Shown here: positions 12,950 to 55,903 of the stretch, one piece after another
Layout of the letters: each line of letters begins with the position of its first letter
How positions within the stretch are numbered: position 1 is the stretch's first letter
Source: Octopus vulgaris
Lineage: Eukaryota
Length of the DNA stretch: 64,000 nt
NCBI GenBank assembly: GCA_951406725.2
Contig: OX597825.1
Span: 70,494,001-70,558,000 of the forward strand
Direction: 5' to 3'
The notes under the pieces: generated by a model
What the model was told of the DNA's origin: nothing
What the model saw: the letters and a program-made list of their open reading frames with translations, nothing else
Database searches by the model: none
Program-made: the position numbers and the translations under genes

Positions 12950-13038
12950 ATGCAGTACGATCGTTTCATGCAACTCCATTTAATTGAACAATGCAATCCT
13001 TACATCAATTGAAAATGCAGAGCGATCCTCAGCTGCAC
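12950..13038 (-). ncRNA. Type I hammerhead ribozyme motif (C3-G8, long stem II) in the left arm of a fold-back element
   Basis: Minus strand: GTGCAG-CTGAGGA-[long stem II]-GAAA-CGATCG-TA-CTGCAT. Palindromic stem III ACGATCGT, GUA cleavage triplet. Confidence 0.75.
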
Positions 13039-13278
13039 AAAGACATAGAATTTAATTAAATTAGAACAGATGGACACATTAGTATAATTATACCTAAAAT
13101 CTCCAAGAAGTTAAAGGAGATAGACAAAGAACATGCATCTCCACTCCAGCATAGAAGTTACTCTATGTTAAAGTAGAGACAGCATGTTCTTTGTCTATCT
13201 CCTTAACTTCTTGGAGATTTTAGGTATAATTATACTAATGTGTCCATCTGTTCTAATTTAATTAAATTCTATGTCATT

Positions 13279-13367
13279 GTGCAGCTGAAGATTGCTCTGC
13301 ATTTTAAATTGATGTAAGGATTGCATTGTTCAATTAAATGGTGTTGCATGAAACAATCATACTGCAT
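13279..13367 (+). ncRNA. Decayed hammerhead copy in the right arm of the same fold-back
   Basis: GTGCAG-CTGAAGA-...-GAAA-CAATCA-TA-CTGCAT. Stem III palindrome damaged by CpG-type transitions. Confidence 0.55.
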
Positions 13368-13477
13368 AACCTCTAGATATCCTTGTTGCTTATTTTGATT
13401 TTAATCACCTTACTTTGAAATTGTATGGATAATACCGTACTAAATTCTGGTGCCTCAGCTTAAGTACCATATTCATC

Positions 13478-13536
<59 letters not shown>

Positions 13537-14133
13537 TATCATATAAATAACAAAGTAGAGAGATAGGTCCAGGTAGATATCTGTTCAGTCTCAAATTTGG
13601 TTCTGACCCCACACATAGTATTAATTCCAGTTAAAACACTTAGTGTAGCAGGTCCTGAGAATATGTAATAACGTAGATGATCGAAACAAATATAATAATC
13701 CTTTATTTATTTATCCATATAAATAAATAATTTTCCAACATATGTTTCTGCTTAATTACTAAAAGTAAATCTATCTTGATTAGTTAATTAAATAAATAAT
13801 TAAATAATTGTCAATACAATGCATTTAGTAAAATATATATATATATCAATGTGCTTGTGTGTGTATGCATGTATATTTATAAGTGTGTGCCTTTATGTGT
13901 GTATATATGTATAAAAGTGTGTGTGTGTGTATGCATATGTAGGCACGTGTACATATATTTATAAGTGTGTGTCTATGTATGTGTGCATGCGTGTGTGAAA
14001 TGTTTTTTTTTTCATCAAAATGGAATGTCCGTATTAAACAAATAAAACCAAAACAAATCTATTTATTTCCATAAAACAAAAATAAATTAAGCAACTAAGT
14101 ATGAAAGACTGACAGAAAGACAAGAAAACTTAC

Positions 14134-14216
14134 ATCATTGGCCCGGGGAGTCGGAATACCTTTACAAGAAGTTGTCGATCTAAAACAACATTTTTTGTGA
14201 CATGTATATTTACAAA
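14134..14216 (-). CDS. MYO9: Myosin-IX exon: second half of C1 zinc finger (VCKYTCHKKCCFRSTTSCKGIPTPRAND)
   Basis: cag| and |gtaagt, 83 nt, phase 1 to 0. C..C....H..C.......C pattern completes the C1 domain. Confidence 0.95.
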
Positions 14217-15265
14217 CTGAAAAAGAAAAAAAGAAAACAAAAAAAATATTCGTTATTAGCGATGGAAGCAGTATTAGATCAAATGAGCATTGTGTATATC
14301 ATACTAAATGCAAATACAGAGTTGTCGAGAAAGCACCTCATATAGATTTATAGTGCTAAAAAACACAGCATCACTGCTAGACACTTTTCGTCTCCTACTG
14401 ATACGTTTCTGAGTCTTTTAACACTATATGTCTGAACAAGATGCTATCTCCAGATAGATACTGCAGTTTCACAGCTTCCAACAGTATGTCTGCATTAATT
14501 ATGGTATACAGAATACTAAAAATAATAATAATATGTAATGACAACAGTAACAACAACAATAATAATGCTAATTTGAATAATGGCTTCTGATTTAAACACA
14601 AGGCCAGCAATTTTGTGGTGAGGAGTCAGTCAATACCATCAAGCTCAGTACTTGAATGGTACTTTATTTTATCATCTCCAGAGGGATAAAAAGCAAAGTT
14701 GACCTCAGCAAGATTTGAACTCAGGATGTAAAGAACCAAAAGAAATATCATAAGGCGTTTTGTCTGACACTCTAATGATTCAGCCAATCTACTATTACTC
14801 TTAATGATTGCTTCTCATTTAGGTACAAGGCCAGCAATTTTGGGATGTGGGGCTTCGTCAATTATATCGACCCCAGTAGTTGACTGTTCCTTTATTTTAT
14901 CGATCTCAGAAGGATTAAAAGCAAAGTTGGTTTCAGTGGTATTTGAACTCAGAATGTAAGGTTCTGGAAAAAATACTGCAAGACGTCTGATCCCACACTC
15001 AAATGATTCTGCTAATCTTCGACCCAATAAAGTACGTATCAATTGAGCACTGGGGTTGATTTAATCAACTAACCCCCTTCATCTAAAAATTGATGGCCTT
15101 GTAACAAAAATTTGAAAAACAATTGTAACTATTCTTTTCTACTCCAGGCCCAAAACTACAATTTCCATTTGATTTTTATTTTGATGCTGATGTACTTGAT
15201 TCAATAGGTCTCCTCAAGCACAACAGGTTGCCAGAAAGATGAATACTTTGGAAGTGTCTACTTAC

Positions 15266-15371
15266 CTTGACATACAAAACCCTTTTCCATGATCCATATA
15301 ATTGATGAACATAGCTCACAGAAAGTTGGAATGTTGAATTGAACTGTAAGGAATTTGTGTCCCAAATACTC
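15266..15371 (-). CDS. MYO9: Myosin-IX exon: first half of C1 zinc finger (EYLGHKFLTVQFNIPTFCELCSSIIWIMEKGFVCQ)
   Basis: cag| and |gtaag, 106 nt, phase 0 to 1. GH.F....F.IPT.CE.CSS.IW.M is typical of the MYO9 C1 domain. Confidence 0.96.
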
Positions 15372-15742
15372 CTGCAGCATCAAAGAAGAAATAAAGCAAA
15401 TACATTAATGACATTAACAAAAACAAAACAAATTTTTAAAAAAAAAATTACCTGACAAATGTGTTTTGTTTCCAAATATATTTTAAAAAGAGAAAATATA
15501 ACGTTTAATAATAATCATTTAGTCATAGCAAACTATGAATACCTTCCTTAAAATTTACCAGGTGAAAGCATGGCTGTGTAGTAAGAAGTTGGCTTCCAAA
15601 CCACATGGGTTCAAGTTCTAGGTTCAATCCCACTGCATGGCACCTTGGGCAAGTGTTTTCTACTATAATCCCAGACTGACCAAAGCCTTGAGAGTGGATT
15701 TAGAAGATGGAAACTGAAAGAAGCCCATCATGTGTATATACA

Positions 15743-15781
<39 letters not shown>

Positions 15782-16327
15782 CAGAGTGTGTGTGTGGTTA
15801 TGTTTGTGCTTGTCTCTCACCACTGCTCTCTTACTCGATAATAATAATAATAATATTGGTTTCACATTTTGGCACAAGGTTTAGGAGAAGGGCTAAGTTG
15901 ATTAAATCAACCTGTTTTCAACTGGTACTTATTTTATCGACCCCAAAAGGATGAAAGGTAAAGCCAACCTCAGCAGAATCTGAACTCAGAACATAAAGAC
16001 AGACAAGATGCAGCTAAACATTTTGCTCAGTATGCTAATGACTCTGCCGGCTTATTATTATTATTATTATTGAGTGAGAGAGCAGTTCATGCAATCAAAG
16101 TGACACTGGGGTAAAATATACGAAGCCCAATATACCCATCATGACTACCCATCTGATAAGGGTACACCAGGCACATACATCACAACCAAATGTGCGCGAC
16201 ATGGTGATCTCATATCAAGATGAAACAGCACATGACCTTGCAGGTGGGGCCCAGTTAGAATTTTCTTCAGGTTGAGTAGCCCATCCCGCTCAAAAGGTCC
16301 CTGAATAAGGGTTGTTTAAGGATATTA

Positions 16328-16379
<52 letters not shown>

Positions 16380-16380
16380 C

Positions 16381-16413
<33 letters not shown>

Positions 16414-16463
16414 GAATCAGTAATAATTAGTAGAAATAATAAATAATTAGTACAGTGGCTTAC

Positions 16464-16712
16464 CAACATATCTTTCTTCTGGCGCTCTTTTTTCGTAGAT
16501 TTGGATTCAGTTTTTCTCTCTTCCTTCTTTTCTTTTCGCCGGATTTCTTTACTCTCCTTCATGAATTCATCTAAGAAGCCACGGAAAGCATTGACCCCCA
16601 TTGTCACTGGGAAAGCAGCATTGGTTCCTACATTTTTCACCTGTGCTTGTAACACCTGTTCAAAATTGTTCATTAAATCTCTGTACCTGTACTGAGTGGT
16701 CACTACGTCTTT
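16464..16712 (-). CDS. MYO9: Myosin-IX tail exon (KDVVTTQYRYRDLMNNFEQVL...MGVNAFRGFLDEFMKE...KKDML)
   Basis: cag| and |gtaag, 249 nt, phase 0 to 0. Y.DL...FEQ and VN.F..FLDEF motifs of the MYO9 pre-C1 helical region. Confidence 0.94.
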
Positions 16713-18059
16713 CTGAAATAGGAGAAAAAAAAAAAAAGAAAAAACAGAAAAATAGATAAATCAAGAAATAAAATAAAAGCAAAGACATGATAAAAATATT
16801 CACTTCTTTTTACAAAACTACAAAGGACATTTGTTGTTATTGTTGTTGGTTATTTAGCCTCAAGTCTGTCCTCCTCCAATAGACCTGTGAGCAAAAATGC
16901 TGACCAGCATGCTGTTATTGGGATATAGTATATCTAGGACTATAGTGGAGGTGCATGGATCAGTGGTTAGAGTATTAAGCTCACAATCATGAGGTAGTGA
17001 GTTCAATTCCCGGACCGGGCTGTATGTTGTGTTCTTGAGCAAGACACTGTATTTCACATTGCTCCAGTTTATTCAGCTGTAGAAATGAGTTTCTACATCA
17101 CAGGGGCCAAACTGTATAGGCCTTTGCCTTTCCCTTGGTGGCACAGAGAAGGGAGGCTGGTATGCATGGGTAACTGCTCATCTCCAATAAACAACCTTGC
17201 CCAGACTTGTGCCTCAGAAGGGAACTTCCTAGGTGCAATCCCATGGTCATTCATGAGCAAAGGGGGTCCTTACCCTTTATGTCTAAGACTACCTCTCTCT
17301 CTTTCGGAGAGGCACAAGCACCTACACGTACATATACACACATGGCAGTAACTTCCGCCTGCCGAATTCAATCACAAAGCTTCGGTCGGCTCGGGGCTAT
17401 AGCAGAAGACACCTGCCCAAAGTGCCATACATTATGCAGTATTTCTTCTATTTTTAAGATGGTAGCATCTTGGGTATATGTTGTCAATCATAACCTTGGG
17501 TTTAACAAAGCCTTGAATAAAGTTTTCCAGAGAGCAACTGCACACATGCACAGCAGCAGCAGAGGCACCATTGTCATCATCATCACCTTTATCATATATA
17601 CAAGAGGGTTCCATTCAGATCATCCATCTGCCAAATTTCACTCAGGGCTTTGGTCAACCTGAAGATAACTAACACCTCTGTGAGGGACAACAAAAGAGAA
17701 AAACTTGAGGAATTTAGTTTGAGTTACGTCCCTTTACAAGAAGGTGAACCAACTTAGTTATTTTGTCTCTTGCAACAGGGGATCCCAGTCACCATGCCAT
17801 GGAGCACATGGTACTGGACCAAAGAGAAAGTATAATTTTTTGCAGGATATTCTTCCATTATATGTGTATTATTATATATGTAATAATTAAATTAGATATT
17901 GTACGCTTTATTGTGTTTTGTTATATTGGTGATCCACCCAATCCATGGGAAAATTGTCTTGAATGAAACCAGTCTGTGGTGTGAAAGAGGTTGGGAACCG
18001 CTGCCTTACAACATTGATATAAGTAAGAAAAGCAGGCAATTATCATCATCATTATCATC

Positions 18060-18270
18060 GTTTAACGTCCGCTTTCCATGCTAGCATGGGTTGGACGATT
18101 TGACTGAGGACTGGCAAACCAGATGGTTGCACCAGGCTCCAAACTTGATCTGGCAGAGTTTCTACAGCTGGATGCCCTTCCTAACGCCAACCACTCCGAG
18201 AGTGAAGTGGGTGCTTTTACGTGCCACCAGCACGAGGGCCAGTCTGGTGGTACTGGCAATGGTCATGGAA
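18060..18270 (-). mobile_element. Dispersed SINE-like family D with (GAT)n tail (others about 29490-29645, 47160-47400, 52603-53050, 61300-61570, 63120-63300)
   Basis: Recurrent tttaacgtccgctttccatgc...ctggatgcccttcctaacgccaaccac unit next to (CAT)n. Confidence 0.8.
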
Positions 18271-18417
18271 AATTGTATTTTTTTTTTATGTGTCACCTGC
18301 ACACCAGCACAAGTGCCAGTAATTATATTTAACTAACACCCATAAAGGCTTGCTGCCAGCAAGAGAACAGTTCAAAGACTGAAATTAAAGTACACAAAAA
18401 AGACAACAACGTAGCAG

Positions 18418-18654
18418 TAGAATGGTTGTATACTGTCAATTTAACGTGACAGTAGGGGATTACACCACCACTGTTTAGCCCTAGGAGGCATCGACGCCTC
18501 CTGATGGCTTTGACACATTTTTTTTCCTGTGTCCTTATATATGTGTCCTTATAAATGTGTCGAAGCCATCGGGAGGCGTCGATGCTTCCTAGGGCTAAAC
18601 AGCGGTGGTGTAATCCTACTGTGACGTTAAATTGACAGTATACAACCATTCTAT
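18418..18654. repeat. Long inverted repeat (about 100-bp arms), MITE-like
   Basis: tagaatggttgtatactgtcaatttaacgt... pairs with ...acgttaaattgacagtatacaaccattcta. Confidence 0.9.
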
Positions 18655-19009
18655 CGCCCCACCACCGTACATATCTCTATGAGATATTTAGAAATTTAAT
18701 ATTTCTGAATGTAGCAGTATTAGTACCAAAAAGTAATTTTTATGTTATGACGTGGGTATACATGTCTGGTGTAAAATGGTATTACATAAATATATGGTTG
18801 GTTGTGGTTAACTAATATATGTTAACTCAGAATGCACTCCATACTACTCAAACATAGGTACAACACTTAGTATTCACTGTTCAACTACTGACAGTTAAAC
18901 CATCTCACATCGAAATTACACAGTAGACCAACATGGTTGAACTAACACCGTCAACTAATCTAACCTGAAAGTTCACTCAGTTCCTATCTATTGTAATCGA
19001 TTAGTCCAC

Positions 19010-19520
19010 CTTCAGTCACATGGAGGTGTTCAAGACTGTCGCATATTCTGAACGCCTTACTTCCCTGGGCATGGATACATTGAAACTCCGACGTCTGGCA
19101 GCTGACTTGGCAGACAACCATAAAATTATTAACCATCTTACTAACAATAACTCTGAGCACCTTTTCAAACTCCACCCGTCTAACACCCGTGGACATATTT
19201 ACAAAGTCAGAAAACAGCACAGCTCCCATGACTTTCGGAAACATATTTTCACGCTAAGAGTTGCTGAAGCATGGAACAAACTGCCGGCATCAGTCGTTAG
19301 TTGTCGGAGCACTGCATCCTTCAAAACTTCTATGCTTCCTGAGATTCGCCAACACTACACCTGATTTTCTCCCCTCCATACACACACAAGCATGTATCTG
19401 ACTCATACATTGTTCACTTTCCAGACATTTGTACATTACTGCATATGCTTTATACGCACTTTTGACAAGTTGTGGTGCACCTGAGCACTGTATACAATAA
19501 TTTCATTATTATTATTATTT
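19010..19520 (+). mobile_element. 5'-truncated CR1-clade LINE (ORF2 C-terminus, 3' UTR and (TAT)n tail)
   Basis: Peptide Y.ERL..L...TL..RR...DL...TRGH..K...R..F..RV...WN.LP..VV....SFK is the typical CR1 RT C-terminus. Confidence 0.88.
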
Positions 19521-19706
19521 TAACACTTTATATCCAACTTAACATGGTTGTTTTGTTAGATCATCAAATACTGAAGTACACCATGCATTCTTAGGTGAAT
19601 ACCACAAACAAACCCTCCAGGTGAAGTTGGATGTAACGATTGACTTTTAGAATTTTAGAAAATATATATAAAAAAAACAACAAAAACTACAAACAATGGC
19701 ACTTAC

Positions 19707-19823
19707 CAACATTGCAATTGACAAACAAGCTGTCAGGTCTCGATGAAATTCTTTGAGAGATTTTTTAAAAACTACATCACAGATAGTATCTCGTTGACTG
19801 TTGTACAGACTGAGGTTCATTAG
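19707..19823 (-). CDS. MYO9: Myosin-IX tail exon (LMNLSLYNSQRDTICDVVFKKSLKEFHRDLTACLSIAML)
   Basis: cag| and |gtaagt, 117 nt, phase 0 to 0. DT..DVVFKK.LKEF motif as in MYO9A. Confidence 0.93.
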
Positions 19824-21294
19824 CTGAAAGTAACAAGAGACAGAAAATGGTTATTAAACTCACCATTCCTTCAGTGGCATCAGAGCTACTGAAAGGACAA
19901 CAGAAGAATCTAGACTAAGCAGCTTCAACTTTTTCCCAAGAAGCAGGCCACATGAGACATGGCTCATCATCAGGTAGGCCAAACTACTAAGGAAATTCCA
20001 GGTAATTTTTTTGTTAGAAATATCACTGAGAAAGTCCTTTGGACTGCATGCGGCCTGTGGGCTGCAGTTTGCTCAAGACCGAGGTTCAATAGTTTAATAC
20101 AACACATAGTACAGAAAAAGTGGGGCTTTTTAACTTATAATTTTTTTTTTGCTTCAGGTGTACAGTCAAGTGGTTAAGAACTTAGCTTCACAACAACATG
20201 GTTCTGTGTACAGTCCCAGTCAATGCACAACACCTCAGGCAAGTGCCTTCTGTTGTAACCTTGGATTGACAAACTTGTGGGTGAAAATTTGGTTGATGGA
20301 AATTGTATTAAGCTTATCATGTGTACATATATATTTGTGTGTGTGTGTATACACATATATACACATACTACCATGCATACAGAGAAGGGGTTGGGAATCA
20401 AACAGATTTGGTAAACTTAGAGTCTCCTCTGCATGTTTGTGCTAAGTGATGCCTATGTTGTCATTATTATAATCACCTGTTCTTAGCTGTCAGAGACTTG
20501 CAGAACATAGAAACCTTTTGCCTGAAAAACAGGCAAGGGTTGGCAACAGGAAGAGCGCCCAGCCATAAAATCTTGTTAATTCTTCTCCAAGCCATGATAG
20601 CATAGGAAAACAGATGTTAAGGAAACAACCAATCTGTGTGTGTGTGTGTATATATATGTGTGTATGTGTGGAGGCGCAATGGCCCAGTGGTTAGGGCAGC
20701 AGACTCGTGGTCGTAGGATCATAGTTTCAATTCCCAGACTGTGCGTTGTGAGTGCTTATTGAGCGAAAACACCTAAAGCTCCACAAGGCTCTGGCAGGGG
20801 GTGATGGCGATCCCTGCTGTAGTCTTTCACCACAACTTTCTCTCACTCTTTCTTCTGTAGGCCTGCTCGCTTAGCCAGCGGGGTGGCATCATTTGAAGGC
20901 TAAAACAATGCAAAGGACATTGTGACCAGCGATGTGTAGCAACATCTGATAGCCTGGTCGGTCATGTGATTATATATATATATATATATATAGGTCACAT
21001 AAGTCCAAGCATAGCTGCGTGGTTAAGAAGCTTGTTTCCTAACCACATGGTTTTGGGTTCAGTCCCACTATGCAACACCTTGGGCAAGTATCTTCTACTG
21101 GAGCTCCCAGACTGACCAATTCCTTGTGAGTGGATTTACTGGACGGTCACTGTGTTGAAAATGAGCTCTTTTAACCACACAGTCATACCTTCAATATCAA
21201 AAAGCAATGACTTAGCTGTCCAATAAACAGAGACTGATGAGATAAGTACCAAACGGTAATAAATTCTGGGGGTGTGACGATTGAGTAAAACACC

Positions 21295-21523
21295 TTAACC
21301 CTTTCCTTACTGTATTTATTTTGAGATACTCTGTGCTTCTTTCAATTAATTTTAAATATAACAAAGAATTTAGTAAAATAACTTAGTTATCATTCAGCTA
21401 ATGTAAGGAACATAAGTTGTGACTAAGGTTTGGTGGAAGATTTTAATTAAAAACTTATGGAAACAAGACATTTGTACTCAGAGCCAGAGCTGGTTTCAGC
21501 CGGGTTGGTTACGAAAGGGTTAA
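21295..21523. mobile_element. Same piggyBac-type MITE, nested in a SINE 3' end
   Basis: TTAA-flanked, highly similar to 9629-9856. Confidence 0.85.
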
Positions 21524-21588
21524 CGGAGTGCTCTAGCATGGCCACAGTCTAATTCGTGAAACTGGTACATAAAAGAATAAGAAAATAC

Positions 21589-21878
21589 CTTTTTGTAAAT
21601 AAATTCATCAAGCAACTGCAATTCCCGGATATCAGAGACCATGAGTTCTTCAGGATATTGCCACTGGGAGGTGCCTGCCACACTCCAGTTTGTGGGCGGC
21701 ATCTTCATGTCAGACTTGCTACGCATTCCACGTCGATGGGGTTTCTTCCGATTGGAGCTTGCTCTGCGTCCATCCATAAGAACTGGACCGCAGGGCACTT
21801 GGATGCCATAGCTGCTGGTTTGGAGAATTTCATCATGCCCGAAAGTAGGTAAATATTCCAGGTTTGTCGGGGCACCAA
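21589..21878 (-). CDS. MYO9: Myosin-IX tail exon (IGAPTNLEYLPTFGHDEIL...WQYPEELMVSDIRELQLLDEFIYKK)
   Basis: ccag| and |gtattt, 290 nt, phase 1 to 0, open frame. The W...EL..LDEF..KK motif fits MYO9. Confidence 0.9.
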
Positions 21879-21956
21879 CTGGAAAATAGACAATTCGAAA
21901 CCACTGATAACAACAACAGCAACAACAATGAAAAATATTTGTGAAAGAAAACAAAT

Positions 21957-22249
21957 TCATTTTTGGATTTGGTTTGCAAGATTCTTTATATGAGTTCGTG
22001 TGTTGAAGCATATTCTATTGTGTCTGGGGGAGTCATTTTCTTTTTGTGCCTTATTATTATGTAAAACACTCACCGGTAAAATTTCCATGTTTTTCTTATT
22101 TTTATTGTCCTAAAATTTTCGTTGCGTCTTGCAACCTTTTCAATAGTTTTAGGACAATAAAAATAAGAAAAACGTGGAAATTTTACTGGTGAGTGTGTTA
22201 CATAATAAGGCACAAAAAGAAAATGATTCTCCTCAGACACAATAGAATA
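21957..22249. mobile_element. Fold-back repeat, same family as 57213-57443
   Basis: Arms about 22012-22117 and 22147-22249 are inverted; hammerhead-like loop; homologous copy at 57.2-57.4 kb. Confidence 0.8.
22110..22146 (-). ncRNA. Minimal hammerhead motif with U3-A8 core variant
   Basis: Minus strand: CTA-TTGAAAA-G-GTTGC-aagac-GCAAC-GAAA-AT-TT-TAG, sitting in the loop of a fold-back element. Confidence 0.6.
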
Positions 22250-22564
22250 CAAATTCAATAAAGCTCATTAAGCAGCTTACAAAATTAAATAAAGTTAATT
22301 ATCATCATCATCATCCTCATTTAGGCACAGGTGGGGTTTTGTGGTTAAGAAGCTTGCTTCCCAACCACATGATCTCAGGTTCAGTCCCACCTGCTGGCAT
22401 CTTGGACAAGTGTCTTCTACTACAGCCCCAAGCTGATCAATGCCCTCTGAATGGATTTGGTAGGCATGAACTGAAAGAAGACTGTTGCACACACGTGCAT
22501 GCATGTGCATGTGTGACCTTGCCGTAATATCATGTGATGGATGAAAATGAGCTTCACCCTCAAA

Positions 22565-23575: not shown

Positions 23576-23812
23576 ATGAGTATTACAGATTAGGATACGC
23601 AAAAACAAAGAAAAAAAAGAACCAGACTGAACGGTCATGGCTGGAACATTTTTCACCATACACCATTTACTCAATCAAGGCTAGGCTTTAGCAAATGACG
23701 ATGATGATGATGCTCCTCCTCATAAAAAATCAACAACAGCAGCAGCAGCAACAGCAGCAGTTGCAGGAGAAACCATAGTCTTAGCTAAAGATAAAGAATT
23801 AATAATACTCAC

Positions 23813-23908
23813 TTTCAAGAGGTCGTTGCATTTTCACTTGAAGATCATCTGGAATCGAATCATCACTATCATCATAAGGGATATCCTTCCTACCTCCTTT
23901 ACGATTAC
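23813..23908 (-). CDS. MYO9: Myosin-IX tail exon (GNRKGGRKDIPYDDSDDSIPDDLQVKMQRPLE)
   Basis: cag| and |gtgag, 96 nt, phase 1 to 1, open and phase-compatible on both sides. Confidence 0.82.
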
Positions 23909-24104
23909 CTGTCAGGGTTTAAGAATAATTGCACGAGAAATATTATACAGTTTCTTAAATTTTTTTTCAGAATGGAAAACAACAGACATCTTAAAAAAAT
24001 TTAAATAACGGAAAAATTTGTAAGAATAAGTGAATAATTTTAAAAATATTTTTGTCTGTGTATATATTCTAGTAAGAATTCAGCTTTGAATGCACAAGTT
24101 TGAA

Positions 24105-44450: not shown

Positions 44451-46713
44451 ATGTGTGTGTGTGTGTGTATGTATGTGTGTGTGTGTATATGTTTGTATGT
44501 CTGTGTTTGTCCCCCCCAACATCGCTCGACAACCGATGCTGGTGTGTTTAGGTCCCCCGTAACTTAGCGGTTCGGCAAAAGAGACTGATAGAATAATTAC
44601 TAGGTTTACAAAGAATAAGTCCTGGGGTTGATTTGCTCGACTAAAGGCGGTGCTCCATCATGGCCACAGTCAAATGACTGAAACAAGTAAAAGAGTCTTT
44701 GTGTGATTTTGAATGGCTTGGATGTATCTGCCAGGCTGCAGTCATTTATAACTATTTTCTTTCTTCTTAGATTCTGAATAAACTGTTAATAAAATATATG
44801 ACACTATGTTGTCGACATGGTAACCCAGGTTCGAAATCTGGTCATGACAGCTAATACTATCAATTTTATTTTTAAATTTATTTTAAAGATGGCAGCCCAG
44901 CATAGCTGCAGCCTCTAGCTGGCACCATTAAAAGTTAAAGTGGTAAGAATGTAAAAAACAAAAAAAAAAGTAACATAGTTATTTGTTATTTACATGTAAC
45001 GGCCCTTTAATACAACAAAACAGCTAAAAATCAGCTTCAATAAAAAGAATTCTTTTTGTTATACAACAAACAGGGAATTATGAGGTCTGAAATAATTATG
45101 GAAGAAGAACTGATATTTATGTTTCTAATTTGTAGAGGAGGAACAGAGAAAAAAAAATGTTTAAAATACATACATTTACCAGCATTTGGTAATACCGCAA
45201 ATGAAAAAATTACATTTTGTGGCACCAGAAATGGATGAAAGAACTTTTGTCCAAACAATGAGAGACACATATGGTTGATTGCCATATTTATATACATATA
45301 CATCTGTGTATATATAGATATATATATATATACACACTTGTACAGGTAAAGCTTTGGTATTCTGACAAGGTCAGACAGACCAAAACACATATGTCCATAG
45401 CTGTTGCCTGCTTACAAACAAAGAGATCAGACTGTCCTTTCACTAAGTATGCAAATTAGCATGCAAATTTATTTGCAGTTTACTGAAATTATCTCCCCTT
45501 TTACTTTCATTTTCCTTATCAATTGCCACAAGGTCCTTTTTGCTTCCTGCTTCAAACTGAATTCGAGGCAGGAAACCCTAGGAAGTTTCACAAGCACTCA
45601 TCTTTAAGTGCACTGCTTCTAATAGCAGAAACAGTTGTAAGCTAATGAAGTTCATTGCATAATTACATGTTCTTTTGTCGTTAATTGATTGCTTCATTGA
45701 TGTATGTGGAGGTACATGGCCCAGTGTTTAGAGCAGCGGACTCGCGGTTGAGGGATCATGGGTTCGAATCTCAGACCAGGCAATGTGTGTGTTTATGAGT
45801 GAAACACCTAAGCTTCACATGGCTCAGGCAGAAGGTAATGGTTAACTTCAACTGATTCTTTCACCACAACTTTCTCTCACTCTTTCCTCCTGTATGTTGC
45901 AGCTCACCTGTGACAGACCGGCATCCCATCCAGGTGGGGAACCTATATGCCAAGGAAACCGGGAAACTGGACCTATGAGTCAGGCATGGCTTGAGAAGGA
46001 ACAAACAAACAACATTGACGTATGTATGCACACATACACACACACAGGTCAGTTATACTGTCCAGTTATGATAAATGTTGCAATAACTATCTATAGTATA
46101 CCAGGCCACACTGTCTACTGTTCCATAACCAATCATGGTGATGAGGTAGTGATGGTTATAGTAATGATGATGGCAGTGATGGTGGTGGTGGTGGTGGTGG
46201 TGGTGGTGGTGGTAGTGACAATGACACTAGTAATGATGGTTGTTGAAGTGGTGGAGGAGGAAGAGGAGGAAGGGTGCAAGGTGGTGGTGATAGTGATGGT
46301 GGTTACAAGCTTAAGAGTAGTGATCATCATAGAAGTAACAATGATGACGGTGGTGTCGATAGCAGAAGTAGTGGTGGTGGTGGTAGTGGTGGTGGTGGTG
46401 GTTGTGAAGGTAGTGGTAATAATGACAGTAGTGGTGGTGGTGACAGCAGTGGTGATGGTGATGAGGATGGTGATGCTTCCAAGGGCACTTAATCTTTTAG
46501 ACAGAAAGTGATCCATGGTGGAATGCCATCGAATTTCAACACGAAACTTCGGAAGGGAATTTCTAGAAATGCTATTGGCACTACAGAATAAAGAATGGTA
46601 AACGAGTGTAAAGAGGACTGATTCTGTGTGCTTGTGCTTAGGTTTAGAGGTGTGTTTCTGAATGACAAGTGGAAGCCAGTGTATGCAAACTGATAACTCT
46701 GTATGCCTAAGTG

Positions 46714-46750
<37 letters not shown>

Positions 46751-46773
46751 CTGTGTGTGTATATGTGAGAGAG

Positions 46774-46825
<52 letters not shown>

Positions 46826-48436
46826 ACTGAGTCAGAAAAGGGAACTGGAACATATGTGAAATCTTCACCATCATCATCATCTTTTGATGTCTGTTTTGTT
46901 CCATGTTTGCATATGTTGGATGGAGTTTCCTTGAGGCAGATTTTCTTCAGCCAGATGTCTTTTCTTGTTAACTCTCACCTGTTTCCAAGCAAGGTATAAT
47001 ATTTCCATGAGGCCTGACCTTCCAAGAGAATACTGGAAATGAATACCAGTTCTATGACTGTGACACTTATTTACAACTACCACACGGTATCAAGAAAGAA
47101 GACACAAACACACACTTATTGAAATGTGTGTGTTTGTGTATGTGTGTGCCTTGATCATCATTAATGTCCACCTTCCATGCTAGCATGGGTTGGACGATTT
47201 GACTGAGGACTGGTGAACCAGATGGCTACACCAGACTCCAATCTGATCTGGCAGAGTTTATACAGCTGGATGCCCTTCTACAGCTGGATACCAACCACTC
47301 CGAGAGTGTAGTGGGTGCTTTTACGTGCCACCAGCACGAGGGCCAATCTGGCGGTACTGGCAACGGTCATGCTCGAAATGGTGTTTTTTACATGCCACCT
47401 ATTATGTAAAACAGTGGTTCCCAAACTTTTCGGCCTTGACACCCACCCCACATTCCTAGCACCCCCACCCCAACTAAACCATCACAAACATAGACCTCTT
47501 TCTGAAGCAAATTCAAACCAACTGTATTTCACAAATAAAACTTAACTTCATGAACCCATTATGTTGTTGTTTTACATGAATCACCGCTCCATTACCGCCC
47601 GAATTTTTACTTGAATAGCTACCCCATTATCGGCCTCTTGGAACTTTCTACCACCCCCAGGAGGGCAATACTACCCACTTTAGGAACCAGTGTTGTCAAT
47701 AAAAGGATAAAATTCATCATCGTACATGTGGTGTTCTTCATTCTCTAACTTCTGTGCAAGCATGTTTGGGTCGTCAGGGGGAAAATATTAACTTACTTGG
47801 AAACAGGCAAGGGTTAGCAACAGGGAGGGCACCTAGCCGTAGACAATCTACTTCAACAAAATTCTATCTAGGCCATGCAAGCATGGTAAAGTGAAGGTAA
47901 AAATGATGATGATGTGCATATTTAGATTACATTAAACCACAAAAGCCACAAAGGAAAATTGTATAATAGGAGATATGATCTCAAAACAGTCATTATTTTG
48001 CCCATACAATGTTGCTCAGGTGATATTTGTGAAAAAAAAAAAAAAAAACTATTATGCTTTCATATAATGTACAAACATGTATTCAGAAATCCAATATTTT
48101 AAGAGGTAGCTGGCTCAGTTTTGTCGGCTGAACGGCAAATGCATGAAACCGCTGGTAGAGACATTTTGAGCCATCCAGTTCAAATTTCATATCAGAAAAT
48201 ATTCTGCTTCCACATATTGAGCTTAGAGGTCTATCACTTTTAGGTTAATCAACATAAATTAATAAATGTATTGTTGGTGTCATAAGAATTTATAAACTTT
48301 CAAGACAACATGAAATAATTGTTTCTTTTTTTCTTTTTTGAAACAGTGGATCTCAAAGCACATATATAGTATATAGTATATGAATACTGAGTTGAAAAAC
48401 ATTTTTATAGCTTTATGTGCTTCAAGATCTATTGTT

Positions 48437-48489
<53 letters not shown>

Positions 48490-48493
48490 ATAT

Positions 48494-48545
<52 letters not shown>

Positions 48546-48714
48546 GTACATATATATATATATGTATGTATAATATATATGTGACAAATACAAGCATATC
48601 AAATACTTCACAACATAGATTCTTGATTGATTAAAATTATTTCTGCCTCCAGAGAATGTGTCTTAATTACAAAATAGAAACCAAGACTACCACACACACA
48701 CATATGCATACACA

Positions 48715-48745
<31 letters not shown>

Positions 48746-49573
48746 CCGAGAGGTATCCATCTACAACCTAGACTCTAATATTCTGGTTTCCTGTGCGTGT
48801 GTGAAAAAACATTTTTTGAAATCCTTTAGTATTCAGCCCACACTGTAAAATACAATATGCTTATTTATTTGCCTTGTTTTGAATTCACCATGCATTATGT
48901 CACATCCTCAAGACTTTGATGATGTGCTCATTTTTACAATGATATAGCAGGACGAATACAAAAGGTAGGATCTATGGTTTGAACATAAAACAGGAGAATA
49001 TTTGAACCAGATATGACTGGTATTGATGCCAAATGGTTTAATTATGCTATAACCAATATCATTTTCATTATTAAACAATAAAAACAACAAAAAAATCTGA
49101 CAGGCACATCATCAAAAGCATTCAACTCTTGATAATCCCATATGTGTGTGCACATATATATGTGTGTGTGTGTGTGTGTGTCTGTAATTGTTAAACAGGA
49201 TGTCAAACATTATGTACCTAATTGTTTAGATCACCTGTGAACTAAACCCCTATACATTGTATATATATATATGAAGGGATATAATTAATAAATACCCTAG
49301 AAACAGCTGTAAGACCTTCTATCTATAAATGTTCTAATATCTGCACAGCCTTGGGTTTTTTAAATCTCATTATGCAAAAAAATTATTTTATATATATATA
49401 TATATGTACTGTAACAGTTTTAAAGTAAGATAATAGGGTGTTTATATGCATGCATGTATAAACATGCGCATACATATATACAAGTGTGTGTGTAGTTGTA
49501 TAAATGCATGCATGCATATACACAGGTGTACATGAATATATAAAAATGTTCATGTGCACACACATATATATAT

Positions 49574-49616
<43 letters not shown>

Positions 49617-49699
49617 AAGGTGCATATATGGATGTAGATGTACAGATGTGCATGTATATATTGTGTGTGTGTATACATATACACACACATATATATACA

Positions 49700-49739
<40 letters not shown>

Positions 49740-49984
49740 ACATGTATGTATGTTTATAGAGGTAAACACAGATGTACTACAACTATTTCTAATGTTAATA
49801 CAAGGCAGAGAGAAAGGAAATCATTCTTTAAAGAGATCCAACTGTGAAATTTGAACCCAGAACTTAGCGATGGTTGAAATTCCGGTAAGCATTTCGTCTA
49901 GCATGCTAACAATTCTGCCAGCTTGCCACCTTAACAACAACAACAATAATCCTTTAAACTATAGGCACAAAGCCAGAAATTCTG

Positions 49985-51350
49985 GTGGCGAAACTATAAA
50001 AAAAGTTGGAGAGGAAGGATATAAGTACCTGGGTATCATTGAAAGAAATAAGATGAATGAACACAAGATGAAATAAATGTACAGGAAAGAGTATTTGAGG
50101 AGAACTTGGCTTGTGCTCCAATCGAAGCTGAATGGCCACTATAAGATTAGAGCAATTAACACGTGGGCTGTTGCTTTGATGAGATATGGGGCAGGATTAG
50201 TATCTTGGAAGAAGAATGAATTACAAGTGATAGACTGGAAAAAACGTAAATTAATGACAATGAACAAGGAACTACACCCGAAAAATGATGTGTCAAGATT
50301 GTATGCTAAGAGGAAAGAAGGGATATGGGGATTAATGCGTTGTGAAGGTTGTGTAAGGGAAGGGGAGAATAGCCTGGCTTGGTCTGTCAAGGGGAGTAAA
50401 GAAGAAATGATTGAAGCAGTGAAAATGCAGGGAACCTTAAAAGTGAATGAAGCCGTAGATCCAACACAATTTAAGAAAGACTAGAAAGAGGAGATGAAGA
50501 AAATTTGGCAGGACAAAAAAATGCAGTCAGTTCTTGAAGAATAAAGATGAGATTGACTGGAATAGAACCTAGCAATGGCTGAAGAAAGGAGACTTAAAAG
50601 GGCCCACTGAAGCATTAGTGTGCAGTGCTCAAGAACAAGCTCTCAGAACAAACTACTCCAAATATCACATTGATAAAAGCACTGACTCACCACATAGCAG
50701 GATATGCTCTGAGAAGGGAGAAAGTATAAGCCATATTGTTGCTGAGTACTGTAAGCTGGCACAATGCAAATACAAAAGGAGACACGACAATGTGGCCAGA
50801 TATGTCCACTGATTGTTGTTCAGTGAAGCAAACCTTGAGAGAGCCAAACAATGGTATGAACACAAGCCAGAGGGAGTAATGGCAAATGGACATTACAAAA
50901 TACTCTGGGATTTTAACATGCTGTGCAATCAAGTCATAGGGGCGAGATGGCCAGATATCGTGATCATCCATAAAGATGAAAAAGAAGCAAAGATAATGGA
51001 TATTGCAATACCATGCGATTCGAGGGTGAAATGTAAGGAAACAGAAAAGATTGAAAAATACCAGCCACTGCGGGACGAGATAGGAAAGTTATGGGGCATG
51101 AGGAAAGTAATGGTGATACCGGTGGTAATTGGAGAATTAGGAACAGTTTCCAAGAGCTTTGAAAACCATATTAAGAATATTGGAGTTGCTGTCAAGCTCG
51201 AGGTGATCCAGAGGACAGCAATGTTGGGTACAGTTCACATTCTAAGGAGAGTATTGTCTCTTTGAGTCACTACTTGAAACCTTTAGTGATTTGTTATTAC
51301 CTACTTTCAAGTAAAGATCAATTACAAATAGTACCGCCAGAATCAAAACA
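49985..51350 (+). mobile_element. Degenerate 5'-truncated non-LTR retrotransposon with restriction-like endonuclease (R4/Dong-like)
   Basis: Broken ORFs 50077-51265: RT thumb region, AQEQAL.T, zinc-knuckle remnant, RRHDNVA, ILWDF, PD..I..K and DIAIP.D..KE.EK..KY. Several stops and frameshifts; ends in an (AAC/AAT)n tract. Confidence 0.88.
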
Positions 51351-52073
51351 ACAACAACAATAATAATTATAATAATAATCTTTTCTACTCTAGGCAAAAG
51401 TCCCAAAAATTTGGTGGGGGGTAGGCGGAGCAGTCGATTAGATCAACCTCAGTACGCAACTGGTACTTTATTGACCCCGAAAGGATGAAAGACAAAGTCA
51501 ACCTTGGCAGAATAATAATAACAATAACAATAATCCTTTCTACTATAGACAAACATCCCAAATTTTAGGGGAGAGGTCTAGTCAACCCCAGTGCACAACT
51601 GGTACTTATTACATCAATCCTGAAAGGAAGAAAGGCAAATTCGGCCTTGGCAGAATTTGAACTCAGAACGTAAAGCCAAAAGAAATGCTGTCAAGCATTT
51701 TCTCCAGCATGCTAACAATTCTGCCATGTAGGTTTGTGGTGACATCCATGCCTTTCCTATAGCCAATACATATGTATGGGAATGACATGAGAACTTGTAG
51801 TGAATTTGACGATGATGATGATGATGACGATGATTGTGGTATGGTGATGACAATGATGACACTGCTGATGATTGTCATGCTTATGATCATGATTATCATG
51901 ATAGTGTTGGTGGTGGTTGAAGGTGATGATAATAGTGATGATGATGATGATGATGATGATGACGACAACACTGACAACAAAGATGATGACAGAAGGTTTC
52001 ACTATTTTCATTTCATTCTTTTTAAAATAAAACACAATAATTAAAATATTCAACTTTTCTAATTCCAGTGTGT

Positions 52074-52127
<54 letters not shown>

Positions 52128-54126
52128 TAGTTGTCTACTCCTTAAGCAGAGTTTAACCCCACCTCCCTGTACCTACTACACCTTAGAACCATCATGGTAT
52201 CTGATGTGGCTTTTCAAACCAGACAGTGTTTTGAAAAGACACCCACATAGATTGCATATCCGATTTGGACCACCAAGAGCTGCAGAGAAGATCTGAACTT
52301 TGAGGATCTTAAAATGTCTTTTGAGGCCTCCGTTAGATTTGATGGAAGGAGTGAGCTGATGTGCGGCAAGAACATTTCATCACTATAAACAATTCATTTG
52401 TGCTGGTCACTTGGCAAAAACTGAATACTCATATGTTGTCTTCAAAAGGGGAGTCCAGCATATATCCTCTTTTCTGTCCATAATGTTTTTGCCCAGTTTT
52501 CATCTATTTTTCCTCTCTCTGTCTAACTTTTAAATATATCTATATATCTATATATATATACACATACACATACACAATATATCATCATCATCATCATCAT
52601 TGTTTAATGTCTGTTTTCCACGCTGGCATGGGTTGGACTGTCCGACTGGGGTCTGGGAAGCCAGATGGCTGCACCAGCCCCCAATCTGATCTGGCAGTGT
52701 TTCTACAGTGGGTGCCCTTCCTAACGCTAACCACTCTGAGAGTGTAGTGGGTACTTTTTAAGTGCCACCGGCACAAGGGGTCAGAGGAGCTGGCATCGAC
52801 CACAATCAGATGGTGCTTTTTACGTGCCACCAGTACGGAAGCCAGTTAAGGCGGCACTAGCATCAGCCACATTCGGATGGTGCTTTTTACATGCTACTGG
52901 CACGGGGCTCACAACTGCAATTTCCATTTGATTTGATTTTGATATTGCTGATGTTGATGTACTTGACTCAGCATCAGCCACATTCGGATGATGCATTTTA
53001 TGTGCCACCAGAAAAGAAGCCAGTCAAGGCAGCACCTGGCATTGCCCACGTTTGATATTTACATATATAAATATATATTGTCAATTATCACTATCATCAT
53101 CATATATATTTTGTTCTTTTCTGTCACACTATGCTTGCATGGCTTCGATGGTTTCTCTCAATGCTCCTTCTTTACTCAACTGACATCCTCCATATGTTTC
53201 ATATTTTCATACGTTTTAAGTCTTCTCTCTTACACATTACATTAATTCCCTTTACAACCAGTTTTTCTCTCAGCTCATTTACGCTCAGTTGTCCAGACAC
53301 ATCCAGTGTAACCGGCTTGCTTCATTTGTGTGCAGCACTTTGCAGAAACACCAAATAATCTACGCTTCACTTAGAGAGAGAATTGCTTTGGAGAAAGTTG
53401 AGAAAATAGCCTTCAGAGTTTTTTTTCCACATCTCCGACACATTTTGCAACTATCATGCAATGCCAAGACAAGGAGACAGTAAAACATGCACACACACAT
53501 ATATACATATGATGGGCTTCTTTAAGTTTCCATCTGCCAAATTCACTCATAAGGCTCTAGCTGGCTTGTGGAGCTATAGTAGAAGACATTTGTCCAAGGT
53601 ACCATGTAGCAGGAGTGAACCAGGAACCATGTGGTTAGGAAACAAACTCCTTACCACACAGCCATGCCTGCATTTTTCACTATTCCAAATCAGATTGGAA
53701 CCTGGTTCAGCTCTCCAATTTCAGTTCAAACCACCTAACCCACACCAGCATGGAAAGCAGATGCTAAATAATGATGATGATGATAATATTATACACACAC
53801 ACATAGCATGATTACTCCGCCACACTCTCTCTCCCCACCTGATATAGACATGTTTTCCCCCCTTATGCAAGACTCCTTTCTCCTGTCACTCAAAACTACT
53901 CCATTCACTTCAGTTGAGGAGTCTTGTCTAAGTTATTAATCAACCTCACTGCTGTTGGTGCCATGTAAAAAGTACCCAGTACACCCTGTAATGTTACTGG
54001 GGTTAGTCAAGGGCATCCAGCCTTAGACACTATGCCAAAGCAGACAGCAAAGTTTGGTTTCTGTCAAACCATCCAATGCATACCAGCATGAAAAGTGGAC
54101 ATCAAATGATGATGATGATGATGATT

Positions 54127-54166
<40 letters not shown>

Positions 54167-54874
54167 TATATGTAAGTATATGTGTGTGTATCTATAAATA
54201 TATATGTAATTATGAGGAGTTGTGGCCAATCTCCAATGACCCAATCACTAGGTCACTATTGACCAACATCTGGTTCCCTTCCGGAATGCTACTGGAAATG
54301 TCTACAGGTACAACAAAATCATTAGATTAATAACCCCGACTGATTACGGCCTTGGAAAGCATTAACAGAATAGAGAAATTAAGTTCTAAAAGACAATCAA
54401 CCACTGGTGTCAACAGAATTAAAGATATCACAGAATTTAGAACGCCATAGAATTTAGGATGCCACGGTTTGAGAATGCCATCATTGTAGATAGAAAAACT
54501 TTAGGAGAAAAAAGATGCATTGATAATAGGTTCATGGTAATGAAACTAAATATTGGTAGGAGAATAGAAAAAAAATAATAATTTGAATGAAAAAACAGTA
54601 AAATAAAAATGAAAACTAATTAATAATATGATATTAGCCAAGAACTCTGACCACTGATCAATCTGAAATATGGACACTGAAATGGTAATTAGTATCTAAA
54701 AAATAATATTATTATTTACTAAGTATTAACTATTTACGAGAAAAAAGAACATGTTTATCATACGTGCTTTGTTTTATGAAAAATCTTCTCTAACACACAA
54801 ACAATAATTTAAAAATATATTTCGAAATATACATTAAGCAATATTTCTATCAATAAATGATAACGATGACTCAC

Positions 54875-55049
54875 CTCCCATTATATTCTTGAAATGTTTC
54901 CGGGCACGACGGAATGGGCTGATGTTGATGACAGACTTTTCTCCACCGCCTTCAGTTGATTGTTTTTCGTACACAAACATGGAAGCGCGTTCATTATTAC
55001 CTTGCTTCTCAGGTGATATTAGCGGAAATAGTGCTGATGACGATAACTC
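54875..55049 (-). CDS. MYO9: Myosin-IX tail exon (ELSSSALFPLISPEKQGNNERASMFVYEKQSTEGGGEKSVINISPFRRARKHFKNIMG)
   Basis: aag| and |gtgag, 175 nt, phase 0 to 1, joining the 23908 exon in frame. GC-richer coding-like island. Confidence 0.82.
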
Positions 55050-55842
55050 CTTTAAAAATGCAACGTATACTAATTAATTAATTGAAAGTCAATTAGATCA
55101 ATAAATAAATAAATAAATAACTCATTGAAAATAAATGAGAAAATGAGCTTTAAAAGTCAGTTCAAAAAAACAAATTCGTTAAAATCATAACGAGATATCT
55201 AACTGGAGAATGAAGAATATGTACATTTAAAACAATTATATTAAGTGTGTAATAGACATCCAGCACTAGTTTTGGGAGTGAAAGCTAACAAACCTAACTC
55301 AATCTTACTTGAAGCAGGAATAAATGACATCAACAATTAGAAATGCAAAACTTTGAAAATTTATTCAAGTATATTATTTACTGCAATCTTAAATCCACCC
55401 CCCACCAAATTTTTCAATCAATTCAAAGATGTCTCTAGCAAACAGCAATCAAGAGAACAAAATAACAGATGACCTGAATAGACAACTTCTACATGAAGTG
55501 TCACAGTCTGCTAAAAATAGCAACCACGGAAACTGGGAAACCGACCCTTATGAGCCAGGCATGACTCAAGAAGGAACAAACAATATATATATATATTAAA
55601 GGTATTTTTAATATGCTGGCCATTGATAAAAAATTCTATCCTATATTAGATGTTAATTTAATAGTGTTCACTTCCAGACTCTCTCGCTTTACGAGAGCTT
55701 TTCGGTTCGAATCGCACGTGTCTCGAGGTGTGCTAGAGAATTTCTATTTTGGATATATTTGTGGTACTTAATTGTACTCGTGGCTTAGTGCTCGCTTCTT
55801 CCATGGGTATAAGTAAGTATTTCACTTATTTATTCACCGCAT

Positions 55843-55903
55843 TTATCACTGATGAAGAGAAGGTTCTTATGAACTAACTCTGAAATCGGGTCCGATATGG
55901 TAA
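55843..55903 (+). ncRNA. Complete canonical type I hammerhead motif in a TA-flanked element (about 55597-56044)
   Basis: TTATCA-CTGATGA-AGAG-aa-GGTTC-ttat-GAACT-aa-CTCT-GAAA-TCGG-gt-CCGA-TA-TGGTAA. All three stems pair; predicted cleavage after 55897. Confidence 0.8.

What the first reader, a model, noticed from the sequence alone, without database searches (positions are those of the whole stretch)
12950..55903. Intronic collection of hammerhead ribozymes whose core 3-8 pair covaries (C-G, G-C, U-A) across repeat families
Seen: about 10 motifs with the layout stem I, NUGANNA, stem II, GAAA, short palindromic stem III, UH, stem I. The cores are CUGAGGA/CUGAAGA/CUGAUGA (12950, 13279, 26594, 38920, 55843), GUGAACA (26121, 35647), UUGAAAA (22110) and UUGAUAA (34950, 35160). 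In each of these, positions 3 and 8 remain Watson-Crick complementary. Established: C3-G8 is the tertiary pair of the active hammerhead fold and compensatory swaps can restore activity; Penelope-like elements and retrozymes carry minimal type I hammerheads with palindromic stem III that can cleave as dimers. Inference: this genome has several non-autonomous ribozyme-bearing retroelement families, some with non-canonical cores that CUGANGA-only searches would miss.
Basis: partly seen in the sequence, partly recalled or inferred. Interest (0 to 1): 0.9.

Follow-up and report, generated by a model that had tools for sequence, protein, structure and literature searches.

The report
Octopus Penelope hammerheads with flipped core
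Ten hammerhead ribozyme motifs in the introns of an octopus myosin gene are likely inert leftover ends of Penelope-like jumping genes, and one family of about 4,000 copies has the ribozyme's key core base pair reversed (G3-C8 instead of C3-G8), a form we found in print only as a laboratory mutant and that is predicted, not shown, to cut RNA.

Summary
Observation confirmed. All ten motifs lie at the stated places, in introns of a myosin-IX gene, five on each strand. They belong to six dispersed repeat families plus one decayed singleton. Two families are tied to Penelope-like elements (PLEs) by coding sequence; the others look like PLE ends by anatomy only. Positions 3 and 8 covary between families, not within them: all 12 multi-copy families are Watson-Crick (4 C-G, 7 U-A, 1 G-C; permutation p 0.0003, families not independent), and 10 of 10 hits in 400 kb of unselected DNA are too. 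The G3-C8 family has at least 4,027 copies and is the 3' terminal repeat of an RT + GIY-YIG element (1,025-codon open frame); its sister lineage has C3-G8 and another relative U3-A8. PLE hammerheads, U3-A8 and U10.1-U11.1 are in print; natural G3-C8 was not found in our searches, but a key paper was unavailable. Copies mostly start about 60 nt upstream of the cut site, so uncut RNA was likely the template; cleavage is untested.

The parts
12951..13037 (-). Family D hammerhead, C3-G8 core, U10.1-U11.1, long loop II, palindromic stem III; left arm of an inverted pair (element about 12918-13509)
13280..13366 (+). Family D hammerhead, right arm; stem III palindrome damaged by two G-to-A changes
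22110..22146 (-). Family C hammerhead, U3-A8 core with extra G before stem II; cut site predicted to be buried in a long hairpin made by the adjacent inverted arm (element about 21944-22252; 3' tail codes for a PLE ORF start)
26121..26171 (-). Family A hammerhead, G3-C8 core with extra G, 7-bp stem I, 5-bp stem II, AAUAUU palindrome as stem III, U17; element about 26044-26223 with inverted tail and a 13-bp direct repeat on both sides
26446..26493 (-).
26594..26640 (+). Family F hammerhead, C3-G8 core
   Evidence: (second member L329)
34950..35003 (-). Family B hammerhead, U3-A8 core, U10.1-U11.1; inverted partner of 35160
35160..35215 (+). Family B hammerhead, U3-A8 core, U10.1-U11.1 (pair spans about 34931-35289)
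35647..35697 (-). Family A hammerhead, G3-C8 core (element about 35594-35751 with inverted tail)
38920..39047 (+). Decayed hammerhead-like motif: C3-G8 core, about 100-nt stem-loop II, perfect 8-nt stem III palindrome, broken stem I; no relative in 1.26 Mb held at that time
55843..55903 (+). Family E hammerhead, canonical C3-G8 core, 12-nt palindromic stem III (element about 55680-56060)
57202..57490 (.). Family C inverted pair that lacks the ribozyme core; tail codes for a PLE ORF start
999..62756 (-). Host gene, unconventional myosin-IX; aligned coding pieces include 62756-62658, 55052-54873, 23915-23814, 21885-21571, 14214-14128, 12822-12622 (RhoGAP); gene continues on both sides

Best explanation
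The ten motifs are type I hammerhead motifs in dispersed repeat families that are likely short, inert end-fragments (pLTRs) of Penelope-like retrotransposons, directly tied to PLE coding sequence for families A and C, and the families carry different but always complementary 3-8 pairs, likely because selection kept the active fold while each lineage was mobile. Shown: the families, their fixed cores, the link of the G3-C8 family to an RT + GIY-YIG frame about 1 kb upstream on the same strand, inverted arms, 3' tails, and 5' ends clustered upstream of the core. Inferred: a promoter in the pLTR makes a capped RNA starting about 23 nt before the core; the PLE protein copies it, mostly uncut, into AT-rich DNA, often adding an inverted arm; the ribozyme would cut only slowly, as a dimer through its palindromic stem III or with help from the PLE protein; once inserted, copies such as these intronic ones decay neutrally. 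G3-C8 is the natural form of the C3G/G8C rescue mutant and would keep partial activity.
For: Excess over shuffles and 10 of 10 Watson-Crick in 40 unselected 10-kb stretches, versus 1.9 hits per shuffle of which 0.8 Watson-Crick. 12 of 12 multi-member clusters Watson-Crick, p 0.00026. Family A: 3,890 copies with G3 (97 of the first 100 listed have C8) plus 137 without. G3-C8 hammerhead 3' of RT/GIY-YIG frames in L272, L273, L274, L275, L277, L287, L288, L289. Sister element (54-58% protein identity, 99/99 support) has C3-G8; family C, whose tail matches that ORF's first 30 residues at about 60-75%, has U3-A8. Six homologous motifs: 36 of 36 cells paired, 5 of 6 pairs change on both sides, 3-8 is C-G, G-C and U-A twice each. 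All 24 descriptor hits kept in 57 metagenome PLE loci are on the ORF strand. 40 of 94 arms start 57-64 nt upstream of the cut site; 27 of 39 arms carry a non-native G there. Literature: PLE hammerheads and U3-A8, C3G/G8C partial rescue and uncut template in a PLE, G3-C8 hampered by C17 while family A has U17.
Against: No cleavage data. Only 4 of 94 arms start within 3 nt of the predicted cut, and three of them are rearranged. Within family A, 94 of 100 listed copies that lost G3 keep C8; none is C3-G8. Core columns are barely more conserved than flanks in families A (0.99 vs 0.97) and D (0.98 vs 0.97), more so in B (0.96 vs 0.88), in BLAST-biased samples. The AAUAUU stem III self-duplex is only -0.2 kcal/mol and the monomer fold costs about 6 kcal/mol. 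The youngest sister element has C at the normally conserved A9. Families B, D, E, F were not linked to a PLE frame. The six-row alignment was chosen by me for fitting the fold, and families share ancestry, so the p-values are optimistic. One metagenome hit was A3.G8 (L450).
Confidence: 0.82

Rival explanations
1. The G3-C8 motif is a dead or purely structural relic: the lineage no longer needs cleavage, the fold serves as a protein-binding or promoter-proximal signal, and the complementary flip was fixed by chance or by old selection.
For: Copies come mostly from uncut RNA; cleavage was dispensable for insertion in vitro in another PLE; the hyperactive sister has A9C; weak stem III; G3-C8 occurs in one lineage only, so it is one event.
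Against: The 3-8 pair forms in the active conformation, and it stays complementary in all 12 families and across the tree; two independent transversions landing on a pair by chance is unlikely; U4-G5-A6 and GAAA are invariant.
Confidence: 0.25
2. They are non-LTR retrozymes: non-coding tandem repeats that release circular RNAs and spread on their own cycle.
For: Most copies are 170-300 nt and non-coding; all 30 sampled family C copies share one 5' end (selected on that end); retrozymes are argued to derive from pLTRs.
Against: No tandem array at any motif; copies are single or inverted pairs with PLE tails; the tails code for the PLE ORF start; 5' ends are not at the cut site.
Confidence: 0.1
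3. The intronic copies are kept because they cut or regulate the myosin-IX pre-mRNA (both G3-C8 copies are sense, in one intron, 9.5 kb apart).
For: Five copies are sense to the pre-mRNA; the window holds 5 strict hits where 1.6 are expected.
Against: Five are antisense; several are damaged or buried (13280, 22110, 26446, 38920); the window was chosen for its motifs; thousands of siblings lie elsewhere.
Confidence: 0.05
4. Chance matches in AT-rich repetitive DNA.
For: Relaxed scans give non-paired singletons; no Rfam hammerhead match; 38920 has no known family.
Against: Shuffle controls, family fixation, position in pLTRs and strand bias.
Confidence: 0.01

Closest known systems
Minimal and short-helix-III type I hammerheads in pLTRs of metazoan Penelope-like elements (PMC4209133)
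   Same: Type I layout, short palindromic helix III, extra nucleotide between 9 and 10.1, many families per genome, mostly solo or opposite-strand pairs from truncated PLEs, U3-A8 variant (about 1,300 hits in Schistosoma).
   Different: Its Fig. S3 lists 56 motifs: 53 C3-G8, 2 U3-A8, 1 U3.G8, none G3-C8. Here G3-C8 is fixed in a 4,000-copy family; the extra nucleotide is G (consensus there H); U3-A8 families outnumber C3-G8 ones in my sample.
Natural hammerhead core variants (PMC3088659)
   Same: U3-A8 covariation and a U10.1-U11.1 mismatch are described as natural.
   Different: The section read names only U3-A8 at these positions, not G3-C8; its figure was not seen.
Engineered C3G/G8C rescue, including in the Anolis Poseidon PLE hammerhead (PMC11167929, PMC8495972)
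   Same: Same base-pair flip; partial rescue of cleavage; uncut RNA is the main insertion template; two 3' ends giving a 'tail'.
   Different: Laboratory mutants; here the flip is the wild type of a recently mobile element. Activity here is untested.
C-terminal GIY-YIG PLEs with a cysteine linker (Neptune / Nematis type; PMC8557442)
   Same: RT then GIY-YIG, CX3CX2C linker, 5' truncation, inverted 5' copies, tail, insertion in (TA)n.
   Different: Clade not assigned by a tree with reference elements; the family A 3' region carries about 1 kb of microsatellite-rich spacer.
Metazoan non-LTR retrozymes (bioRxiv 10.64898/2026.07.22.740005)
   Same: Short non-coding type I hammerhead repeats related to pLTRs.
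   Different: Defined by tandem units; these are single or inverted copies with PLE tails.

Membership tests
Type I hammerhead ribozyme | Core N3-UGA-N-N8-A ... GAAA ... UH with stems I and II | tested here: met
   Met by nine motifs in parse; 38920 has a broken stem I
Type I hammerhead ribozyme | Watson-Crick pair between 3 and 8 | tested here: met
   10 of 10 in the window, 12 of 12 families, 6 of 6 aligned homologs
Type I hammerhead ribozyme | Canonical C3-G8 letters | tested here: not met
   Five of ten motifs are G-C or U-A
Type I hammerhead ribozyme | Match to an Rfam hammerhead model | tested here: not met
   No such match among rows shown for the window (42 weakest not shown) nor in two narrow scans, one on the canonical copy at 55843
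Type I hammerhead ribozyme | Self-cleavage after H17 | not testable with these tools
   No assay; copy 5' ends do not pile at the site
PLE pLTR hammerhead | Lies 3' of an RT + GIY-YIG frame on the same strand (family A) | tested here: met
   Eight loci, longest frame 1,025 codons; RT call rests on motifs and homologs, Pfam RVT_1 did not ring
PLE pLTR hammerhead | pLTR overlaps the ORF start (family C) | tested here: met
   tblastn of the sister ORF start to the tails, window copies included, E 1e-3 to 3e-7
PLE pLTR hammerhead | Link to a PLE frame for families B, D, E, F | tested here: inconclusive
   No tblastn link; D and E show graded 5' truncation and inverted arms
PLE pLTR hammerhead | Inverted 5'-truncated arm and 3' tail | tested here: met
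   tail seen in A and C
PLE pLTR hammerhead | Palindromic short helix III suited to dimers | tested here: met
   Palindromes in A, B, C, D, E; self-duplex -0.2 (A), -8.2 (B), -15.0 (E), +1.4 (F) kcal/mol
Non-LTR retrozyme | Head-to-tail tandem units each with a hammerhead | tested here: not met
   No array at the motifs; only occasional direct pairs elsewhere
Non-LTR retrozyme | Circular RNA monomers | not testable with these tools
   Only assembled contigs of runs of guessed type were on offer

The most novel reading that the evidence does not exclude
One octopus genome holds a natural compensatory-mutagenesis series of the hammerhead's hidden catalytic pair: sister Penelope lineages run on C3-G8, U3-A8 and a first natural, working G3-C8 core fixed in over 4,000 copies, and the same clade has rewired the junction so that an invariant extra G follows a position 9 that can be A or C.
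Probability: 0.45. Interest if true: 0.62.

Novelty: new variant of a known kind. Interest (0 to 1): 0.46.

Why it matters
The 3-8 pair is a tertiary contact of the active hammerhead fold. Finding three different pairs there in homologous elements is evolutionary evidence that PLE hammerheads were selected for the active shape, although their role in transposition is an open question and their RNA seems to be copied uncut. A wild-type G3-C8 element with a near-complete open frame, and its C3-G8 and U3-A8 relatives, give a ready set for testing whether and when PLE ribozymes cut. Practically, 8 of 12 families seen here escape CUGANGA-based searches and no Rfam hammerhead model rang, so ribozyme counts in invertebrate genomes are likely too low. 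The intronic setting adds nothing.

Tried and rejected
Rfam scans gave microRNA and snoRNA noise from simple repeats and palindromes, no hammerhead. DNA-transposon (MITE) reading of the palindromes at 22011-22249 and 57210-57391: rejected, the arms are unequal truncated copies of one PLE end. A C3-G8 subfamily inside family A: none among 100 of 137 listed; 4 double changes are Watson-Crick, but three are A-U, the class that two transitions give anyway. L016 and L241 put family A beside unrelated PLE frames by nesting or chimerism; not used as links. A 3' splice site at the CAG before the family A 5' end was considered; the extra G fits a capped start better, neither is shown. Sequencing runs: no RNA holder listed; contigs of four runs of guessed type cover the stretch but cannot show ends or strand. 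No upstream frame was found for family C in 30 copies. Papers not held: Lunse 2017 (RNA Biol 14:1499), Przybilski and Hammann 2007, Hammann 2012, Martick and Scott 2006; the first could already report G3-C8.
Full report
Setting. The window is G000:C12:70494001-70558000 of a 2.8-Gb genome, about half masked by repeats held from elsewhere. Minus-strand exons encode RhoGAP pieces and match a myosin-IXa that NCBI labels Octopus vulgaris. Aligned exons run through the whole window and beyond, and every motif lies between them: 55843 in the intron 62658-55052; 26121, 26594, 34950, 35160, 35647 and 38920 in the 31-kb intron 54873-23915; 22110 between 23814 and 21885; 12951 and 13280 between 14128 and 12822. 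Five motifs are sense to the pre-mRNA and five antisense.

Observation. All ten motifs are present with the stated cores. A descriptor with positions 3 and 8 free gave 5 hits in the window, all Watson-Crick, against 0.03 per shuffle. In 40 stretches of 10 kb picked by round coordinates before viewing, it gave 10 hits at 8 loci: 4 C-G, 3 U-A, 3 G-C, none unpaired; 20 shuffles gave 1.9 hits each, 0.8 of them Watson-Crick. Eleven neighbouring stretches gave 4 more hits, 2 C-G and 2 U-A.

Families. Genome searches returned 2,963 (A, G3-C8), 281 (B, U3-A8), 1,473 (C, U3-A8), 494 (D, C3-G8) and 1,719 (E, C3-G8) first-look candidates, 40 scored each. In these similarity-biased samples 35 of 36 A rows are G-C, 35 of 35 B rows U-A, 32 of 34 D rows C-G. 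Exact patterns count 3,890 family A copies with G3 (97 of the first 100 listed have C8) and 137 with another base at 3. Of the 100 listed of those 137, 94 keep C8; the six double changes are three A-U, one U-A, one U.G and one A.A, and none is C-G (counted by hand). Change within the family is thus ordinary decay. Across 1.7 Mb held, 183 distinct relaxed hits formed 12 clusters of two or more members, whose commonest 3-8 state is C-G in 4, U-A in 7 and G-C in 1; 36 singletons were left out of that count, and the 17 of them with A9 are 13 C-G and 4 unpaired. Shuffling the states gives p 0.00026, optimistic because families are related and five were sampled on purpose.

What they are. The GIY-YIG family rings in 148 of 150 scored places, many in 781-codon frames; 11 of the 30 loci fetched show a U3-A8 hammerhead of that element's own family on the same strand downstream. 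Family A copies that reach further upstream (453 by pattern) lead through about 1 kb of microsatellite-rich spacer into a frame with RT motifs, a CX3CX2C linker and GIY-YIG. L287 has a 1,025-codon open frame with the G3-C8 motif 1,007 nt after the stop and an inverted copy at its 5' side; its start codon region is not present there. About 20 copies are 95% alike in the probed part. A sister element of 1,310-1,312 codons in many near-identical copies carries the homologous motif with C3-G8 but C at position 9. The 3' tails of family C, window copies included, match the first 30 residues of that frame, so C belongs to the same group. A and C show two 3' ends about 55-60 nt apart and inverted arms, the PLE signature described in PMC8557442 and PMC11167929. 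The copy at 26121 sits between two 13-bp direct repeats inside an inverted arm of family F. B, D, E and F have the anatomy but no coding link.

Covariation in homologs. Aligning two A copies, C, the sister and two metagenome relatives (L422, L424) leaves U4, G5, A6, the extra G, G10.1 and GAAA invariant. The 3-8 pair is G-C, U-A and C-G twice each, all 36 cells pair, and 5 of 6 pairs change on both sides; 0 of 500 shuffles reach the covariation score (rows chosen by me, two are the same family). Of 57 metagenome loci related to the A protein, the 24 hits kept were all on the ORF strand: 13 U-A, 7 C-G, 3 A-U with C9 that look like noise beside a better hit, 1 A.G, no G-C. A 13-row tree joins A with the sister (99/99) and places U3-A8 in three separate parts; long branches make deeper joins unsure. 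G3-C8 cannot be reached from C3-G8 through G.U wobble steps (inference), which may explain why it is seen once.

How it likely works. I sampled family A by a pattern 3' of the ribozyme (2,906 matches) and mapped 5' ends for 94 of the 100 listed places; six places held earlier were not refetched, five of them long copies. Forty of 94 start 57-64 nt upstream of the predicted cut, 5 run further up, 4 start within 3 nt of the cut and three of those are rearranged. Of 39 arms that begin there without the native upstream letters, 27 have G before the start (p 8e-9 against 0.25), as copying of an RNA cap would give; some of these G's belong to the adjacent inverted arm. All 30 family C copies picked on their 5' motif have unrelated DNA before it. 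I infer capped pLTR transcripts copied uncut, matching the in vitro result for an Anolis PLE, where cleavage needed the protein and was dispensable for insertion. Folding predicts stems I and II of family A as the ground state, with G3 pairing U17, and a one-pair stem III as monomer, so any cleavage would need a dimer or protein. PMC3884650 notes that a G3-C8 variant is less active with C17 (data not shown there); family A has U17. The window's copies are probably inert: 13280 has lost its palindrome, 22110 is buried in a hairpin, 26446 and 38920 lack stem I.

Against. No activity was measured; 5' ends give no sign of cutting; the A palindrome is very weak; the most active sister has A9C; core columns are hardly better kept than flanks in young families.

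Prior knowledge and what I saw. PMC4209133: main text parts 1-2 of 4 and supplement parts 1-2 of 3; it reports PLE hammerheads, the extra nucleotide, opposite-strand pairs and U3-A8, and no G3 core in 56 listed motifs. PMC3088659: outline and section 8; natural U3-A8 and U10.1-U11.1. PMC11167929, PMC3884650, PMC8495972, PMC6765202, PMC13725137, PMC11014351, PMC13282606: passages only; the last counts Penelope families in this species and has no occurrence of 'hammerhead'. PMC8557442: passages, sections 3 and 11, one supplement search. Searches for a natural G3-C8 and for octopus PLE hammerheads found none in titles, listings and the passages read; figures were not seen and four relevant papers were not held. 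Hammerhead numbering, the A9 role and cap-G copying are recalled, not from a call.

Verdict. Real, and mostly a known kind. The addition is a high-copy natural G3-C8 core tied to a coding PLE whose relatives carry C3-G8 and U3-A8. New variant of a known kind; interest 0.46.

Noticed in passing
L290:5592, L291:1037 and 5625, L292:956 and 5551, L293:2241 and 6839; L422:2497: A very young 1,312-codon PLE has C instead of A at hammerhead position 9, followed by the clade's invariant extra G; a metagenome relative has the same with U3-A8. The G may take over the role of A9.
   Followed up: partly
L300:939-3281 and L187, L189, L192, L301: Intact 781-codon RT + GIY-YIG PLE family in many identical copies, with a U3-A8 hammerhead about 0.9 kb after the stop.
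   Followed up: partly
L273:5640-5670 and most family A copies: Family A copies start at a sharp point with an extra G; the native sequence there also resembles a branch point and 3' splice site, and an ATG opens a 22-codon frame across the ribozyme.
   Followed up: partly
L276:4129-5295 (L241): A chimera or nest: a frame of one PLE family runs straight into the 3' spacer and G3-C8 end of family A.
   Followed up: partly
window 25970-26724: Nested insertions: an inverted pair of family F interrupted by a family A copy and by a 199-bp piece 96% alike to 19326-19523 (LINE-like end).
   Followed up: partly
window 18418-18653: Another 240-bp imperfect palindrome with no hammerhead hit; perhaps an inverted PLE end of another family.
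   Followed up: no
window 50077-51265 (+) and 19005-19364 (+): Broken frames that look like non-LTR retrotransposon ends (by eye; no Pfam match).
   Followed up: no
window 5132-5862: 40 copies of an 18-bp unit at 94% identity inside a myosin-IX intron.
   Followed up: no
L427:2181-2420 and L450:1736: Metagenome PLE relatives with hammerhead-like but deviant cores at the pLTR position (one lacks UGA, one reads A3.G8).
   Followed up: no
L271:3-7001: A 3.45-kb tandem duplication holding decayed family A and D-like copies; not a PLE body.
   Followed up: partly
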